Part shown: one piece after another, positions 836 through 54,283 of the stretch | How positions within the stretch are numbered: position 1 is the stretch's first letter | How the letters are laid out: each line of letters starts with the position of its first letter | Assembly: GCA_013387205.1 (NCBI GenBank) | Contig: WARV01000002.1 | Location: forward strand, 3,341-67,340 | Source of the DNA: Patescibacteria group bacterium | Lineage (GTDB): Bacteria > Patescibacteriota > Doudnabacteria > UBA920 | Direction of reading: 5' to 3' | Length of the DNA: 64,000 nucleotides | Notes under the pieces: generated by a model | The model's database searches: none | Seen by the model: only the letters and a program-made list of their open reading frames with translations | What the model was told of the DNA's origin: nothing | Made by a program: the position numbers and the translations under genes

Positions 836-931
836 TAAAATGACAAAAATTAAAAAAATGACAAAATTGACATAAATAATGAACCTAATAATTTTTGTTC
901 ATTTTTGTCAATTATGTCATTTATGTCAATA
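836..931. repeat. Family-M dyad word-array repeat (3x ATGACAAAA then 3x TTTTGTCAT-like), copy 1, immediately upstream of pilN
   Basis: Homologous copies at 4341-4437, 16163-16258 and a half copy at 53503-53541. Confidence 0.7.
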
Positions 932-1524
932 AACTCGTGGCCCAGATAAACTTATTAAAACAAAAATCCAGCAGCTTAGCATCTTTTGACATTGTCCCTT
1001 CCATTTTAGTGAAGGTTTTTGCCGGTGCGTTAATTGCCCTGGTGGTTTATTACGGCTGGATTTATATCCGGATAAACAAGACTAATGCGGAAATTGCCTC
1101 AATCCAAGAACAGATAGCCCAGGGACGAAAGGATGTGGTTAATACCAAAGAGAGGAATGAGTTGTTAACCAGGCAAGCCCAGCTAAAGGAATTGAATGGG
1201 GTATTGGGCAAGCACGCTTACTGGTCGCAGATATTTCCGGAAATTGCCAGGGTTACCTTAAAAACCGCCAAATATTCGGACATTAAAGCTTCTGATGAAG
1301 GCGATTTTTCCCTTTCAGTGGAAGTCCCGAACATAAGCGACTTTGACAAATATCTGCAGGTATTCGATAACCCGAAATTTAACGCTAATTTCAGCGACTT
1401 GAGGGTATCCGGCTACCATAAATCGCAGGATTCAGAAGAAAATATGGCTAATATCAAGTTTGACGTTAAAATGAAATACAATTCTTCAATTTTAAATTAC
1501 AATCCTGCAACAACCCAAAATTAA
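895..1524 (+). CDS. pilN: PilN-like pilus assembly protein (one N-terminal TM helix then coiled coil). The true start is probably the GTG near 937, because the first ~14 codons lie inside an intergenic repeat
   Basis: Size, single TM segment, coiled-coil region, position after pilM. Confidence 0.55.
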   Translation: MFIFVNYVIYVNKLVAQINLLKQKSSSLASFDIVPSILVKVFAGALIALVVYYGWIYIRINKTNAEIASIQEQIAQGRKDVVNTKERNELLTRQAQLKELNGVLGKHAYWSQIFPEIARVTLKTAKYSDIKASDEGDFSLSVEVPNISDFDKYLQVFDNPKFNANFSDLRVSGYHKSQDSEENMANIKFDVKMKYNSSILNYNPATTQN

Positions 1525-1536
1525 TAACTTTTTTAA

Positions 1537-2160
1537 ATGGCAATAAGTATTCCGCAAATCCATACTCCAGTAAGAAGCAGTCTGCCCCAAAAGGCCTCTG
1601 TTCGCTATTCGATGATTGAGGTTGTTTTGCTAATCGTGGTCATTGGGCTGTTTTATTGGTTCATTGCCAAGCCGAAAATTGCGGAACTATCCGTCCAGCA
1701 AGCGAAACTGGAAAGTGTGCAAAGCGAGCAGCAGGCATTGGCCGGCAACTTAAAAAAACTTAAAGGGTTAGTTGCGCAGCTGAAATCCAGCCCTGATAAA
1801 GTAAAGCTTCTCGATGAAGCCATGCCTTTGCACGGAAAAACGACCGACGTGGAAACGTTAATCGATTATTTGGCAAAATCCTCCGGAGTGTCCATAGCTG
1901 ATATTTCCGCAACCACGAAGAATGATTTGGTGGCAGCAGGAAATAAAGAGGTGCTTAAGGACCCTTATGCGGTAAAAAGGACTTTGCAAAAAATCACCGC
2001 GGAAGCCAATGTGATGGGCACATACGACCAATTGGTGTCATTTATGAAAAAACTCGAGCAAAACGGGAGAGTGTTGAATGCCAATGCCATGGAATTAAGG
2101 ACTGGGGACGAGGGGCAATTGAATTTAAGGCTAACCATAGAAACGTATTTTTATGAATAA
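1537..2160 (+). CDS. pilO: PilO-like pilus assembly protein
   Basis: N-terminal TM segment + coiled coil; position after pilN; its 3' end overlaps the next ORF by 8 nt. Confidence 0.5.
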   Translation: MAISIPQIHTPVRSSLPQKASVRYSMIEVVLLIVVIGLFYWFIAKPKIAELSVQQAKLESVQSEQQALAGNLKKLKGLVAQLKSSPDKVKLLDEAMPLHGKTTDVETLIDYLAKSSGVSIADISATTKNDLVAAGNKEVLKDPYAVKRTLQKITAEANVMGTYDQLVSFMKKLEQNGRVLNANAMELRTGDEGQLNLRLTIETYFYE

Positions 2161-2494
2161 AAAACAGATAATACAAACTATTGTCATTGTGGGAGCCTTT
2201 GGGGCAAGCGGGTATGTTTTGTATAGCGGCCTTTACAGCAAAAAACCTACTCCGATTGTGCCAGGGGCATTGACTGAAAGCGTAGCCGGACTGGCTCCGA
2301 CTAAGGCTCCGGAAATTTCCATAGATAAAATTTTGCCTTACGGCGACAGTTTGGATTTTGACAAAGTCCTGAAAAAACAAAACCAGCAATACGGAGTCAT
2401 TGATTACCCAAAGCTCGATCCGAATTCGGAAGTGGGCATATCAGAGCCTCAATTAATGAAAGTCATTCCACCTAAGCAAGTGCAAAAAAAATGA
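2153..2494 (+). CDS. Small membrane-anchored protein (possible PilP-like accessory protein)
   Basis: N-terminal hydrophobic helix; translationally coupled to pilO. Confidence 0.3.
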   Translation: MNKKQIIQTIVIVGAFGASGYVLYSGLYSKKPTPIVPGALTESVAGLAPTKAPEISIDKILPYGDSLDFDKVLKKQNQQYGVIDYPKLDPNSEVGISEPQLMKVIPPKQVQKK

Positions 2495-2592
2495 AACGTT
2501 GCAGCTCGGGTATGGTTTAAAATGACAAGCGTGCAATTTATCATACCAACCCTGCAGCAGGGTTGGTATGTTCATCTCTACAATATTAGCTT

Positions 2593-52750: not shown

Positions 52751-52997
52751 GGCGAAGAATTTTGTTATAATACCACCAGATAAATTTGAAAACATCTGCG
52801 GATACGTCTTCAGGTTGTTTATCTCGCAACGCTTGGGATCAGTGTGCCGTCGGCTACGGTTTGCGGCAGAGTATTACCAAGTGTGAAGTTTCCAAAGAAA
52901 CTTGGTGCAGTTTGCTGGCCGGGCTTCATTCCCGCAAATAAAATACAGTCCCGAGAGTATTCGAGGGACAGTGTAATAGATGGTAGATTGCACATTA

Positions 52998-53091
52998 CGC
53001 CTTCCACAGGTGGGACGACAAGCGCAACGTGAATTGCAACCGCAACGACGACAACTGGGATGACAACTACTGGTTCGCTGGCGTCCGCAAC
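52998..53091 (+). repeat. DGR template repeat (TR), AAC-codon rich
   Basis: Reads W D D K R N V N C N R N D D N W D D N Y W F A G V R N in the VR frame; see VR. Confidence 0.85.
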
Positions 53092-53113
53092 TTTCTTTGA
53101 GTTTACTCCTCCC

Positions 53114-53509
53114 TTAACGGGGAGGAGTTTCTTTTACCAGCTGTTTTTGCCAGCCGCCGAGCATTTTGCCTACTTCTGTCAGCGGTTGAGCCAGTGCTGC
53201 CATCTGCTTGCTATTAATGGCTTTCAAATCAAAAGCCATTTGTAGGAAGTATTTGAGTAAATCTAAAATCAAACTCGCTTTGTTTATCACTTCAAGTTTT
53301 TTGTCCTTGTTGGAATAACCGGCAACTAAAATTAGTTCAACCAGTTGGATAAAAAGACTATTGATTTTTTCACCGAGTGAATGCTTTAGTAACTTGGGTG
53401 TATGAGGCAGGTATTGATACCACAGTTTGAATGCGGCTGAAATTTTTTGGACAATCGGTAAGTCCGTGGTGGTAGTAAAATTTCCGTTGGGGGGGGTGTT
53501 AAATGACAT
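53114..53509 (-). CDS. avd: Avd-like DGR accessory protein (four-helix-bundle family), transcribed divergently from the RT (track ORF extends to 53554; Met-16 is a more likely start)
   Basis: ~130 aa; helical LG..I..L....E pattern of the TIGR02436/Avd family; lies between the TR and the RT. Confidence 0.55.
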   Translation of the reverse strand: MSFNTPPNGNFTTTTDLPIVQKISAAFKLWYQYLPHTPKLLKHSLGEKINSLFIQLVELILVAGYSNKDKKLEVINKASLILDLLKYFLQMAFDLKAINSKQMAALAQPLTEVGKMLGGWQKQLVKETPPR

Positions 53510-53530
53510 AAATGAGCAAAAATAATAAAA

Positions 53531-54283
53531 ATGACAAAAATGAGAAAGCAACACAGAAAGCTATATCCGTTCTTTGAAAAAGTTTTTATTGCCGATTCCT
53601 ATTCCTGCCAGATTGGTAAGGGGACGCATAGAGCCATAATCCGCTTTAACAAATTTTACCGGCAGGCCAGCAAAAATAACCGCCACACGGTTTGGGTGCT
53701 GAAGTGCGACATTAGGAAATTTTTTGCCAGCATTGACCATAAAGTTCTACTTGAAATTCTGGCCAGTTATATCTCTGATAAAAATATACTTTGGCTGCTG
53801 GAAAGGGTGATAGAAAGTTTTAACTTTGAAAGAGAAGGTAGGGGTTTGCCGCTGGGCAATCTGACAAGCCAGCTTTTTTGCAACGTGTATATGAACGAGT
53901 TTGACCAATTCGTAAAACACAGGTTAAAAGCCAAATATTATATCCGTTATGCCGATGATTTTGTATTTTTGTCATCTGATAGAAATTCATTGCTGGCGCT
54001 TATTCCGAAAGTTTCAGCGTTTTTGGACGAGCAGCTAAAATTGTCCCTGCATCCAGATAAAATTTTTATCAGGACTATGGCCAGCGGCGTGGACTTTTTG
54101 GGTTGGGTAAATTTTTCTCACCATCGGGTGCTGCGGAACGTAACCAAGCGGCGGATGTTCAAAGGCATAAGGCAGCGGTCGAAGAACGAAACGCTGCAAT
54201 CGTATTTGGGTTTGGTGAGCCATGGTAATACGTTCAAGATAAAACAGGAGGTGTTAAACTTGTATGGGTTACTTGCCGGATAA
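53531..54283 (+). CDS. DGR reverse transcriptase (short, 250 aa; N-terminal motif 0 region apparently absent)
   Basis: RT motifs SYSCQIGKGTHRAI (1/2), LGNLTSQ (DGR-specific [ILV]GxxxSQ in motif 4), YADDFV (motif 5). Confidence 0.85.
   Translation: MTKMRKQHRKLYPFFEKVFIADSYSCQIGKGTHRAIIRFNKFYRQASKNNRHTVWVLKCDIRKFFASIDHKVLLEILASYISDKNILWLLERVIESFNFEREGRGLPLGNLTSQLFCNVYMNEFDQFVKHRLKAKYYIRYADDFVFLSSDRNSLLALIPKVSAFLDEQLKLSLHPDKIFIRTMASGVDFLGWVNFSHHRVLRNVTKRRMFKGIRQRSKNETLQSYLGLVSHGNTFKIKQEVLNLYGLLAG

What the first reader, a model, noticed from the sequence alone, without database searches (positions are those of the whole stretch)
836..53541. Dispersed families of ~100-bp dyad 'word-array' repeats placed a few bases upstream of start codons
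Many intergenic regions share one architecture: a locus- or family-specific 6-10-nt word repeated ~3x in direct orientation, a short spacer, then ~3 copies of its reverse complement. True repeat families exist. Family M (ATGACAAAA) is at 836, 4341, 16163, with a half copy at 53503. Family P (CCGAAT, ~85% identical over ~90 bp, imperfect TIR ATAATCCGAAT/ATTAGGATTAT) is at 4873, 23202, 34753. ACTAAT arrays are at 6100 and 38055. Singletons use CTTCG (43640-43740), GCGAA (45620-45715), TAGTACTTAG (22988-23060) and CGCGGAT (13075/13500). Most end 4-6 nt before an ATG (pilN, ORF 4444, pilT, pilC, ligA, the EndoQ-like gene, pyk, rpoD, the RT). They contain embedded TTGACA/TATAAT-like hexamers. They look like MITE-like mobile promoter/UTR modules or arrays of regulator binding sites, and are not a CRISPR array.
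Basis: seen in the sequence. Interest (0 to 1): 0.75.

Follow-up and report, generated by a model that had tools for sequence, protein, structure and literature searches.

The report
Hairpin repeat cassettes between bacterial genes
The short mirror-image "word" repeats between genes of this uncultured groundwater-type bacterium are real hairpin-forming insertions, and they look like stripped-down copies of a small, previously undescribed gene cassette that carries an uncharacterised nuclease gene (GxxExxY) between the same kind of repeat arms.

Summary
The window (a Doudnabacteria-like CPR/Patescibacteria contig) has about 14 intergenic dyads. Each has 3-5 tandem 7-12-nt words, a short loop, then the inverted words. 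An exact-word scan finds 9 regions against about 0.8 in null sequences, and no shuffle folds as well. Families M and P are true repeat families. The two ACTAAT loci share only the word. TAGTACTTAG lies inside the 23S rRNA.

The key result concerns the "CGCGGAT 13075/13500" pair. These are the two arms of one cassette that encloses a complete GxxExxY (PD-(D/E)XK nuclease, PF13366) gene, inserted right after a stop codon. Ten of 14 GxxExxY genes examined, all eight from CPR and two from Bacteroidota, have the same inverted word arrays on both sides. Four-helix-bundle ("23S IVS protein") genes do too, including Nostoc genes flanked by STRR heptamers.

In six distinct related lineages, four conserved pilus-operon junctions are either empty (9-45 nt) or filled by an unrelated dyad. 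Near-identical strains differ by one 7-nt word.

Best reading (confidence 0.55): these are ORF-less, MITE-like derivatives of such cassettes, and the CPR counterpart of cyanobacterial STRR hairpins. Mobility and protein-word recognition are inferred. A promoter role is not supported.

The parts
841..928 (.). M1 dyad (TGACAAAA words, then TTTTGTCA words), filling the pilM stop to pilN GTG(938) spacer
   Evidence: z = -5.1
4346..4437 (.). M2 dyad between pilB and ORF142
   Evidence: z = -4.0
4874..5022 (.). P1 dyad (CCGAAT/ATTCGG words, ends ATAATCC...GGATTAT) between ORF142 and pilT. It carries a nested 60-nt palindrome at 4885-4944.
6099..6207 (.). ACTAAT/TACGAAT dyad filling the pilT-pilC spacer
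   Evidence: z = -7.1
13069..13112 (+). Left arm of the gene-carrying cassette: four CGC[GA]GA(T) words spaced 10, 12 and 11 nt. It starts directly after the stop codon at 13068 and ends 4 nt before the cargo ATG.
13113..13502 (+). Cargo gene: a complete GxxExxY protein (PD-(D/E)XK nuclease fold) with no stop codon of its own. It is read in frame into the downstream pseudopilin.
   Evidence: TIGR04256, E = 1.3e-28; PF13366, E = 5.7e-29
13505..13545 (+). Right arm of the cassette: three inverted TCCGCG words. It lies in the leader-peptide coding part of the pseudopilin (...AEQG|FTLMEIIVA).
16164..16256 (.). M3 dyad, 35 nt upstream of ligA, separated from the start by a TATAAT-containing stretch
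18855..18954 (.). ATACCC/GGGTAT dyad holding a GAATGGCTCAACC hairpin in its loop, upstream of the rRNA promoter
22988..23059 (+). TAGTACTTAG dyad: an 81-nt insertion inside the 23S rRNA (model positions ~2836-2850)
   Evidence: z = -5.2
23195..23276 (.). P2 dyad in the 23S-5S spacer, ending 5 nt before the ATG of a 35-aa ORF
31812..31955 (.). CTACAG/CTGTAG dyad between convergent genes, after a canonical terminator
   Evidence: z = -7.9
34753..34846 (.). P3 dyad in the leader of ORF 34850
38055..38166 (.). ACTAAT dyad after ORF 36571-38052, 70 nt upstream of pyk. It does not align with the 6099 element.
39632..39666 (+). Direct-only array (AGAATTT x5) after pyk: a 'half' element
43638..43740 (.). 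CTTCG/CGAAG structure following tRNA-Ser. It is weak and branched. Similar CTTCGC hairpins follow tRNA genes in relatives.
   Evidence: (z = -2.8)
45626..45720 (.). GCGAA/TTCGC dyad, 27 nt upstream of rpoD
   Evidence: z = -4.8
53501..53547 (+). M half-array (left-arm type only), running into the ATG of the retroelement RT gene

Best explanation
The dyads are small fold-back insertion elements. Each arm is an array of 3-6 tandem 7-12-nt words, and the two arms are inverted, so the element folds into a long hairpin.

They are the ORF-less (miniature) members of a cassette family. Full-length members carry one small gene between the same kind of arms. [quoted passage not shown]

Shown here:
- One complete GxxExxY cassette sits in this window at 13069-13545.
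- Cassettes and bare dyads occupy the tiny spacers between co-transcribed genes, from stop codon to start codon. They also occur in rRNA and inside one another.
- They come and go between related genomes.
- Word number changes, apparently by slippage.

Inferred:
1. The phased words are recognition sites for the cassette-encoded protein, which moves or homes the element. Bare dyads would be decay products, mobilised in trans or left as relics.
2. The inverted arms pair in the transcript. The insertion is then looped out or cut out (RNase III, as for rRNA intervening sequences), or at least the stop and next start codon are held together. This would explain why insertion into operons and rRNA is tolerated.

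The elements are the CPR counterpart of cyanobacterial STRR hairpins and of the paired tandem-repeat sites of Geobacter metallireducens.
For: 1. Cassette in the window. CGCGGA words at 13070, 13080 and 13103 and TCCGCG words at 13514, 13526 and 13536 pair in the minimum-energy fold. They enclose a full-length GxxExxY ORF. Relative L081 has the same upstream gene end (GAAGAACTATTAA) followed by only 4 nt before the pseudopilin ATG, so the ~480 nt are an insertion.
2. Every CPR GxxExxY gene examined in an independent context has 3-4 direct words ending 3-6 nt before its ATG and 3-6 inverted words starting at its stop: L101, L111, L116b, L125, L131, L136 and L089. Word spacing is strikingly fixed at 11, 12, 11 nt.
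3. The same holds in Bacteroidota (L138, L139: CACAGAG / CTCTGTG). Gemmatirosa has a complete CGCGGAT x3 / ATCCGCG x3 dyad next to the gene. Treponema has a single 11-nt inverted repeat.
4. Four-helix-bundle genes are flanked likewise: L089 57-413 and Nostoc L142 (TTCAAAA x4 | ORF | TTTTGAA x4).
5. An unbiased scan of all ORFs in held loci for inverted flanking word arrays ranks GxxExxY genes first.
6. Bare dyads use the same words as cargo cassettes. The L095 pilT|pilC spacer has an ACGCTGA dyad, against the ACGCTGA-flanked genes in L111, L131 and L136.
7. A decaying intermediate exists: the L089 GxxExxY at the pilT|pilC junction is frameshifted but still sits between its arms.
8. Turnover. 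Four conserved pil-operon junctions were compared in the six distinct lineages held (11 retrieved loci plus the window). Each junction is either empty (9-45 nt) or filled (68-373 nt) by a dyad with lineage-specific words. L082 has two ~95%-identical copies on either side of ORF142.
9. P copies share the same internal mismatches, so they descend from one master copy.
10. L095 and L098 are identical over 9,418 nt except for one 7-nt word.
11. Nesting is seen at P1, ATACCC, L092 and L082. There is also an insertion in the 23S rRNA.
12. The catalytic P-D...E-x-K residues are invariant. The model (pLDDT 91.9) is closest to Cas4, type II restriction enzymes and Hjc.
Against: - No cargo-bearing copy with M, P or ACTAAT words was seen. 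The link for those families rests on shared architecture and on A-rich-word cassettes in other genomes (L089, L116b).
- No target-site duplication is visible.
- No transposition or homing chemistry is known for GxxExxY.
- Some GxxExxY genes in other phyla are flanked by direct rather than inverted repeats (L121, L123).
- Word periods differ: 9-10 nt in M and P against 11-12 nt in the CGCNGA class.
- Only 2 cargo copies were found among dozens of dyads in the 28 CPR-type loci scanned (roughly 0.45 Mb).
- The reverse order of events is not excluded: cargo genes might home into pre-existing hairpins.
- G-U pair counts (90 on the sense strand, 111 on the antisense) give no sign of selection on the sense-strand RNA.
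Confidence: 0.55

Rival explanations
1. Dyads grow in place with no dedicated machinery. A-rich spacer words expand by replication slippage. Quasi-palindrome template switching then copies one arm into the other. GxxExxY and four-helix-bundle genes are separate selfish genes that later home into the loops of such hairpins. On this view the dyads are targets, not relics.
For: - One-word (7-nt) copy-number difference between otherwise identical strains.
- Perfect tandem runs such as CGTTAAT x5 in L095.
- Direct-only 'half' arrays: window 39632-39666, L099 pilB|RR, L081 RR|pilT.
- Hairpin loops are repeatedly the place where other elements sit.
- Many word families are singletons in the data held.
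Against: - M and P copies at unrelated loci are colinear and share the same mismatches, so they are copies of one another.
- L082 has two ~95%-identical copies.
- The same CGCNGA word class accompanies GxxExxY genes in unrelated host contexts, and even in Gemmatimonadota. That implies specific recognition or co-movement.
- The fixed 11-12-11 spacing is hard to obtain from slippage alone.
Confidence: 0.2
2. The dyads are host-selected RNA elements: intercistronic hairpins that set mRNA stability, serve as processing sites, or couple translation of neighbouring genes. This is what has been proposed for cyanobacterial STRR hairpins.
For: - Stems run from stop codon to start codon inside operons.
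- The genome is poor in Shine-Dalgarno sequences (about 6 of 39 genes), so coupling or 5'-end-dependent initiation could matter.
- STRR hairpins between hupS and hupL have been suggested to stabilise transcripts or couple translation (PMC2670836).
Against: - The same junction is empty in some close relatives and carries unrelated sequences in others.
- Dyads also sit between convergent genes, upstream of promoters, in rRNA and inside other dyads.
- There is no excess of G-U pairs on the sense strand.
- This reading does not explain why the arms are tandem words, nor why the same arms flank small selfish-looking genes.
- It may still describe a side effect of the elements.
Confidence: 0.12
3. 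The dyads are arrays of binding sites for host transcription factors or nucleoid proteins, or mobile promoter modules.
For: - Short words phased at about one helical turn resemble iterons or operator arrays.
- Family M words contain TTGACA.
- Geobacter paired arrays were annotated as putative global-regulator sites (PMC2700814).
Against: - At least 10 unrelated words occur in 64 kb of a genome of about 1 Mb.
- Words at a given junction are not conserved between relatives.
- Predicted M promoters converge on each other and have poor -10 boxes.
- Elements occur inside rRNA and in 3' regions.
Confidence: 0.06
4. The pattern is low-complexity AT-rich sequence that looks regular by chance.
For: The weakest cases could be chance: the CTTCG structure, the coding-region hit at 42406-42576, and the shared 6-mer between the two ACTAAT loci.
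Against: - 9 regions against 0.75 expected.
- 0 of 200 dinucleotide shuffles fold as well, for eight elements.
- BLAST E-values between copies range from 1e-6 to 1e-13.
Confidence: 0.01

Closest known systems
Cyanobacterial STRR (short tandemly repeated repetitive) sequences that form intergenic hairpins, e.g. between hupS and hupL
   Same: Both are tandem short units followed by inverted units that form a hairpin in intercistronic spacers, with function unknown (PMC2670836). In Nostoc plasmids the same heptamer arrays flank four-helix-bundle genes (L142).
   Different: The units here are 7-12 nt and often separated by a few bases, not strict heptamers. The host is a CPR bacterium. The papers retrieved did not connect STRRs with cargo genes.
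Paired tandem-repeat 'global regulator binding sites', classes 1-3, of Geobacter metallireducens (Aklujkar et al. 2009, PMC2700814)
   Same: Each consists of 3-5 tandem 7-9-nt repeats on one strand, paired with the same on the opposite strand at variable distance. They are multi-copy and intergenic, including between the operon genes proB and proA.
   Different: They were interpreted as IHF/HU sites with no test. No cargo gene was noted. Insertion sequences ISGme8/9 sit at a fixed distance from them.
MITEs and REPINs (REP doublets mobilised by RAYT transposases)
   Same: Both are small, non-coding, hairpin-forming, multi-copy and intergenic, often nested or clustered. Both are thought to depend on a protein encoded elsewhere.
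   Different: No target-site duplication was found. No GTAG/CGTC-tagged REP unit is present. The arms are tandem words. The candidate partner protein is a PD-(D/E)XK nuclease or a four-helix-bundle protein, not a DDE or Y1-HUH transposase.
23S rRNA intervening sequences (a stem with or without an ORF for the four-helix-bundle 'IVS protein', excised by RNase III)
   Same: Both have a long stem formed by inverted flanks, sometimes enclosing a four-helix-bundle gene, and both are tolerated inside a transcribed RNA. One dyad here sits in the 23S rRNA. CPR rRNA insertions that encode the IVS protein are reported (PMC11270868).
   Different: Most copies here are in mRNA spacers, not rRNA. The stems are built of tandem words. 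Excision is untested.
Eukaryotic Foldback (FB) transposons (comparison from my own knowledge; no paper on them was retrieved)
   Same: Both have long inverted arms composed of tandem sub-repeats, with many copies lacking any coding middle part.
   Different: FB elements are far larger, belong to a different domain of life, and use unrelated proteins.

Membership tests
MITE | Small (<~300 bp), non-coding, with terminal inverted repeats | tested here: met
   Elements are 70-150 nt with no ORF, and the arms pair.
MITE | Several similar copies per genome | tested here: met
   M has 3 copies plus a half copy, and P has 3 copies, in 64 kb. Other families are single in the window, and the rest of the genome was not available.
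MITE | Target-site duplication at the ends | tested here: not met
   Flanks of P1-P3, M1-M3 and the two L082 copies were inspected and show no consistent duplication.
MITE | A related autonomous element with the same ends that encodes the mobilising enzyme | tested here: inconclusive
   Gene-carrying cassettes with the same architecture exist (window 13069-13545; L101, L111, L131 and others). The ACGCTGA word occurs both with and without cargo. The protein is not a proven transposase, and no cargo copy with M or P words was seen.
REP/REPIN-RAYT | 20-40-nt imperfect palindrome unit tagged by GTAG or CGTC | tested here: not met
   The arms are tandem words, not palindromic units. GTAG occurs only in the CTACAG family.
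REP/REPIN-RAYT | Cognate single-copy RAYT (Y1 HUH) gene flanked by REPs | not testable with these tools
   None of the roughly 35 window ORFs scanned against Pfam/NCBIfam is a RAYT or other transposase; about a dozen ORFs, mostly in 1-13000, were left unscanned. The rest of the genome could not be retrieved.
STRR-type intergenic hairpins | Tandem short units plus inverted units forming a hairpin between genes | tested here: met
   Literature description.
STRR-type intergenic hairpins | Strict heptanucleotide unit in heterocystous cyanobacteria | tested here: not met
   Periods are 7-12 nt. The host is Patescibacteria.
23S rRNA intervening sequence | Extended stem-loop inserted in a 23S helix | tested here: met
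   An 81-nt hairpin is inserted at model positions ~2836-2850. This applies to that one copy only.
23S rRNA intervening sequence | Excision by RNase III, giving fragmented rRNA | not testable with these tools
   This needs RNA data.
CRISPR array | Direct repeats of 23-50 nt separated by unique spacers of similar length | tested here: not met
   Words are 6-10 nt, almost contiguous, and followed by inverted copies.
Intrinsic terminator | Short G+C-rich stem followed by a T run | tested here: not met
   The dyads have long A/T-rich stems without a T tail. Canonical terminators exist separately, e.g. 31770-31810 and 43745-43775.
Sigma-70 promoter module | -35 and -10 hexamers at 16-18 nt, oriented toward the gene | tested here: not met
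   Only family M scores. The predicted promoters converge inside the element and the -10 boxes are AAGAAT, CAAAAT or AAAAAT.
GxxExxY protein (TIGR04256 / PF13366) | Full-length match above the curated cut-off, with the PD-(D/E)XK catalytic residues | tested here: met
   Window 13113-13502 scores 99.7 bits against a cut-off of 35, covering profile positions 1-116 of 116. P68, D69, E79 and K81 are invariant. The fold is confirmed.

The most novel reading that the evidence does not exclude
GxxExxY proteins form an uncharacterised family of more than 13,000 50%-identity clusters. Together with four-helix-bundle 'IVS proteins', they may be the cargo of a previously unrecognised, cross-phylum class of mobile cassette.

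The ends of this cassette would be inverted arrays of phased short words, recognised by the cassette's own PD-(D/E)XK nuclease. The ORF-less derivatives would be the long-unexplained tandem-word hairpins of bacteria: cyanobacterial STRRs, the Geobacter paired arrays, and the CPR dyads described here.

The cassette would be carried silently in operons and rRNA because its arms pair in the transcript and the insert is looped or cut out.
Probability: 0.35. Interest if true: 0.85.

Novelty: new variant of a known kind. Interest (0 to 1): 0.7.

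Why it matters
Hairpins built of tandem short words have been noted since 1990 (own knowledge of the STRR literature) in cyanobacteria, and in 2009 in Geobacter, without an origin or function. GxxExxY proteins (listed as 'Unknown' in the PD-(D/E)XK survey, PMC3424549) and four-helix-bundle 'IVS proteins' are among the commonest unexplained small genes in CPR, Bacteroidota and cyanobacterial genomes.

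Tying the two together gives both a concrete, testable hypothesis: a nuclease and its phased recognition words forming a small cassette, with miniature derivatives.

It also matters in practice:
- These elements fill intercistronic spacers of essential operons (pilus, ligase, rpoD, rRNA) in streamlined CPR genomes.
- They create in-frame fusions that inflate predicted proteins.
- They probably break metagenome assemblies; many GxxExxY genes lie on contigs under 2 kb.
- They supply fast-evolving strain markers.

Tried and rejected
- Retrieving the source contig: the exact PilT sequence is not on record.
It did, however, reveal the same architecture in Planctomycetota and Acidobacteriota.
- Rfam: no family at gathering threshold, and only a chance miRNA hit at E = 0.055.
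- Sense-strand RNA test: folding energies and G-U counts on the two strands show no sense bias. I also realised that 'A-rich arm first' is a property of the palindrome itself and says nothing about gene orientation.
- Occlusion of the ribosome-binding site: dropped, because most genes here have no Shine-Dalgarno sequence.
- Promoter reading: rejected.
- Integron attC and CRISPR readings: rejected on inspection.
- Small GIY-YIG ORFs upstream of pilM in relatives do not have word-array flanks.
- Decayed GxxExxY remnants in the long spacers of the L082 TACGAA elements: none detectable.
- GxxExxY in viral contigs: none found.
- PDB sequence search: no relative.
- Literature: 'GxxExxY' appears in three papers and PF13366 in two, none on function. 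No paper on such repeats in Patescibacteria was found.

Full report
ORGANISM AND SETTING

The window has 43% G+C, and almost all genes are on the + strand. It carries:
- a type IV pilus operon: pilM-N-O-x-pilB-ORF142-pilT-pilC, then pilD and pseudopilins;
- ligA;
- a 23S-5S rRNA unit with insertions;
- pyk and rpoD;
- a diversity-generating retroelement.

PilT has a 100% match from an NCBI contig of 67,456 nt that could not be retrieved. Many relatives are 80-87% identical and are named Candidatus Doudnabacteria or Patescibacteria. The organism is therefore a CPR bacterium.

Yes. Reading the intergenic regions shows the pattern directly.

Three tests support it:
- A mechanical scan asked for a 6-mer with at least 2 direct copies followed by at least 2 inverted copies within 130 nt. 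It finds 9 regions, against a mean of 0.75 in 20 second-order Markov simulations. Eight of the nine are non-coding or in rRNA.
- Tandem Repeats Finder reports periods of 7-10 nt in each arm.
- Eight elements fold into one long hairpin with z = -3.5 to -7.9, and no dinucleotide shuffle out of 200 is as stable. Thirty-five elements from the window and its relatives give z = -2 to -11 against mononucleotide shuffles.

Families:
- M and P are true families (alignments A2 and A3). P copies share the same internal mismatches.
- The two ACTAAT loci do not align with each other.
- CTTCG is weak.
- TAGTACTTAG is an 81-nt insertion in the 23S rRNA.
- Two further dyads exist: CTACAG at 31812-31955 and ATACCC at 18855-18954.

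WHAT THE RELATIVES SHOW

I fetched syntenic pil operons from relatives: L081, L082, L092-L094, L095-L098 and L099-L100. With the window these represent six distinct lineages.

Four conserved junctions were compared: pilM|pilN, pilB|ORF142, ORF142|pilT and pilT|pilC.
- Each junction is either almost empty (9-45 nt; for example 11 and 10 nt in L099) or filled from stop codon to start codon by a 68-373-nt dyad.
- The words differ from genome to genome: TGACA, CCGAAT, ACTAAT, TACGGA, CTAAT, GGAAAT, CATTTAA, ACGCTGA, CTACAAAT and TACGAA.
- The unpaired bases left on the two sides of a stem add up to about 3-17 nt. That is the size of an empty spacer. So 'ends a few bases before ATG' is what a hairpin inserted into a ~10-nt spacer would look like.

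Further points:
- L082 has two ~95%-identical copies on either side of ORF142.
- L095 and L098 are identical over 9,418 nt except for one 7-nt word in a dyad arm.
- Elements are nested in one another: P1; ATACCC with a GAATGGCTCAACC hairpin in its loop; L092; L082.
- Direct-only half arrays occur as well.

THE KEY FINDING

- Four CGC[GA]GA words lie directly after the stop codon at 13068.
- Three TCCGCG words lie at 13514-13541.
- The two sets pair in the minimum-energy fold.
- Between them lies a complete GxxExxY protein gene (TIGR04256, E = 1.3e-28, full profile; PF13366 PDDEXK_3, E = 5.7e-29).
- The ORF has no stop codon. It runs into the next gene, a pseudopilin whose leader and G|FTLMEIIVA cleavage site follow the right arm.
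- L081 has the identical upstream gene end, then 4 nt, then the pseudopilin ATG. The ~480 nt are therefore an insertion placed right after a stop codon.

DOES THIS GENERALISE?

Homologues are standalone 130-140-aa proteins of many CPR groups, very often on tiny contigs.

GxxExxY genes in CPR. In every independent CPR context I could fetch, the gene lies in a tight gap, co-oriented with the upstream host gene. The contexts were L101, L111, L116 (a second paralogue), L125, L131, L136 and L089. In each:
- 3-4 direct words end 3-6 nt before its ATG;
- 3-6 inverted words start at or over its stop codon.

For the clade 57-73% identical to the window protein, the word is always CGC[TGA]GA, spaced 11, 12, 11 nt. 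A 44%-identical paralogue uses ACACNAAAC. A distant, frameshifted copy at the pilT|pilC junction of L089 uses ATATACAAAT.

A bare dyad with the ACGCTGA word sits at the pilT|pilC junction of L095.

GxxExxY genes outside CPR:
- Two Bacteroidota genes have CACAGAG / CTCTGTG arrays on their two sides.
- Gemmatirosa has a complete CGCGGAT dyad beside the gene.
- Treponema has a single 11-nt inverted repeat.
- A Fusobacteria gene and a Persicobacter gene have direct repeats instead.

Scan of all ORFs. A scan of every ORF in the held loci for inverted word arrays in its flanks puts GxxExxY genes at the top. It also picks out a four-helix-bundle protein (TIGR02436, E = 9.5e-19) in L089.

Four-helix-bundle genes:
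- On Nostoc and Anabaena plasmids they sit between heptamer arrays. The cleanest case is TTCAAAA x4 | ORF | TTTTGAA x4.
- In Chondrinema they sit between ACAGTGA dyads.

THE PROTEIN

The P-D...E-x-K residues are invariant. The AlphaFold model (pLDDT 91.9, pTM 0.84) is a minimal PD-(D/E)XK nuclease:

The family has 13,179 50%-identity clusters at E <= 1e-3. Many representatives are long proteins with the domain at one end or in the middle, which suggests that read-through fusions like the one here are common.

The literature held has nothing on its function. The PD-(D/E)XK survey lists PF13366 as 'Unknown'.

HOW IT MOST LIKELY WORKS

Shown:
- the architecture;
- the cargo versions;
- the turnover between relatives;
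- word-number change between strains;
- nesting;
- tolerance in operons and rRNA.

Inferred:
(a) Bare dyads derive from cargo cassettes by loss of the gene. The frameshifted L089 copy and the long-spacer TACGAA elements of L082 look like intermediates.
(b) The strictly phased words are binding sites for the cassette protein, which moves or homes the element.
(c) The arms pair in the transcript, so the insert is looped out or cut by RNase III, as rRNA intervening sequences are. At the least, the stop and next start codon stay adjacent. This suits a genome in which only about 6 of 39 genes have a Shine-Dalgarno sequence.

Against (c) as a selected function: G-U pairs are no commoner on the sense strand.

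An equally simple alternative to (a) is that the cargo genes home into pre-existing hairpins. Both versions still require specific protein-word recognition.

COMPARISON WITH WHAT IS KNOWN

The closest described things are:
- cyanobacterial STRR hairpins ('function still not known', perhaps transcript stability or translational coupling; PMC2670836);
- the paired tandem-repeat sites of G. metallireducens (PMC2700814);
- MITEs and REPINs;
- rRNA intervening sequences;
- eukaryotic Foldback elements (own knowledge).

The elements fail the MITE test on target-site duplication. They fail the REP test on unit structure and tag. They are not CRISPR arrays, terminators or promoters.

VERDICT

The dyads themselves are a new variant of a known but unexplained kind of repeat. 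Their link to GxxExxY and four-helix-bundle cassettes appears to be undescribed in the literature available here, and it is the interesting part.

Noticed in passing
window 13113-14243: A GxxExxY nuclease domain (130 aa) is fused in frame to a pseudopilin. The pilin's own ATG is gone, but the prepilin peptidase site (AEQG|FTLMEIIVA) is intact. Cleavage by PilD could release both parts; a GTG near 13500 could also serve as a start codon.
   Followed up: partly
window 18880-18913, 33857-33895, 43414-43443, 56710-56739: A separate dispersed family of G+C-rich hairpins (GAATGGCTCAACC-loop-GGTTGAGCCATTC). Most copies lie just after genes, and one lies inside the loop of the ATACCC dyad. They resemble REP elements or terminators.
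   Followed up: partly
window 18821-18852, 39670-39700, 33816-33843: A third hairpin family (GGGGCATCCTTG...CAAGGATGCCCC and a variant).
   Followed up: no
window 19494-23131 and 23132-23450: The 23S rRNA is 3,637 nt long against a 2,925-nt model. Besides the 81-nt dyad there is a 114-nt insertion near 19785-19900 (two hairpins), plus smaller ones. No 16S gene is adjacent. The 319-nt 23S-5S spacer holds P2 and a hydrophobic 35-aa ORF (23281-23388).
   Followed up: partly
window 52940-54283: Diversity-generating retroelement remnants: an Avd gene (53114-53554, - strand), a short 250-aa RT (53531-54283, + strand) arranged divergently, and AAC-rich template-like sequence at ~53020-53090. The M half-array runs into the RT start codon.
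   Followed up: partly
window, all start codons; e.g. 26340, 55564: Only about 6 of 39 genes have a recognisable Shine-Dalgarno sequence. Some genes have TATAAT 6-7 nt upstream of the ATG, as expected for leaderless mRNAs.
   Followed up: partly
L140 and L141 (Anabaena cylindrica pANACY.01; Nostoc sp. TCL26-01 plasmid): A four-helix-bundle gene flanked by AAGTAAA heptamer arrays sits between cas2 and cas1, on the opposite strand.
   Followed up: no
L052 ~990-1080, ~17040-17150 and ~18100-18400; L066 11165-11245; L053 285-375: The same dyad architecture appears in Planctomycetaceae (GAATGAT x5 / ATCATTC x5, three copies in 21 kb) and Acidobacteriota (TTGCGGA x4 / TCCGCAA x4 before pilC; TTTCGTG arrays).
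   Followed up: partly
P0241-P0386: Many 50%-cluster representatives of the GxxExxY family are 250-900-aa proteins with the domain at the N-terminus, the C-terminus or in the middle, or in tandem pairs. This suggests frequent read-through with neighbouring genes, or insertion within genes.
   Followed up: no
window 43638-43740; L081 ~4590-4640; L082 ~4700-4790; L095 ~2840-2940; L099 ~4620-4760: CTTCGC/GCGAAG-word hairpins lie next to tRNA genes (beside a small GIY-YIG ORF in at least L095 and L099) in the window and four relatives.
   Followed up: no
L095 14819-15022: Perfect tandem CGTTAAT x5 and TGTCAAC x3 lie directly before a pilin ATG. These look like recent slippage products.
   Followed up: no
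L082 1509-4017: A rolling-circle Rep (REP_ORF2-G2P) gene and a large serine recombinase gene lie upstream of the pil operon, followed by a CCAAAT/ATTTGG dyad. This is probably an integrated element.
   Followed up: no
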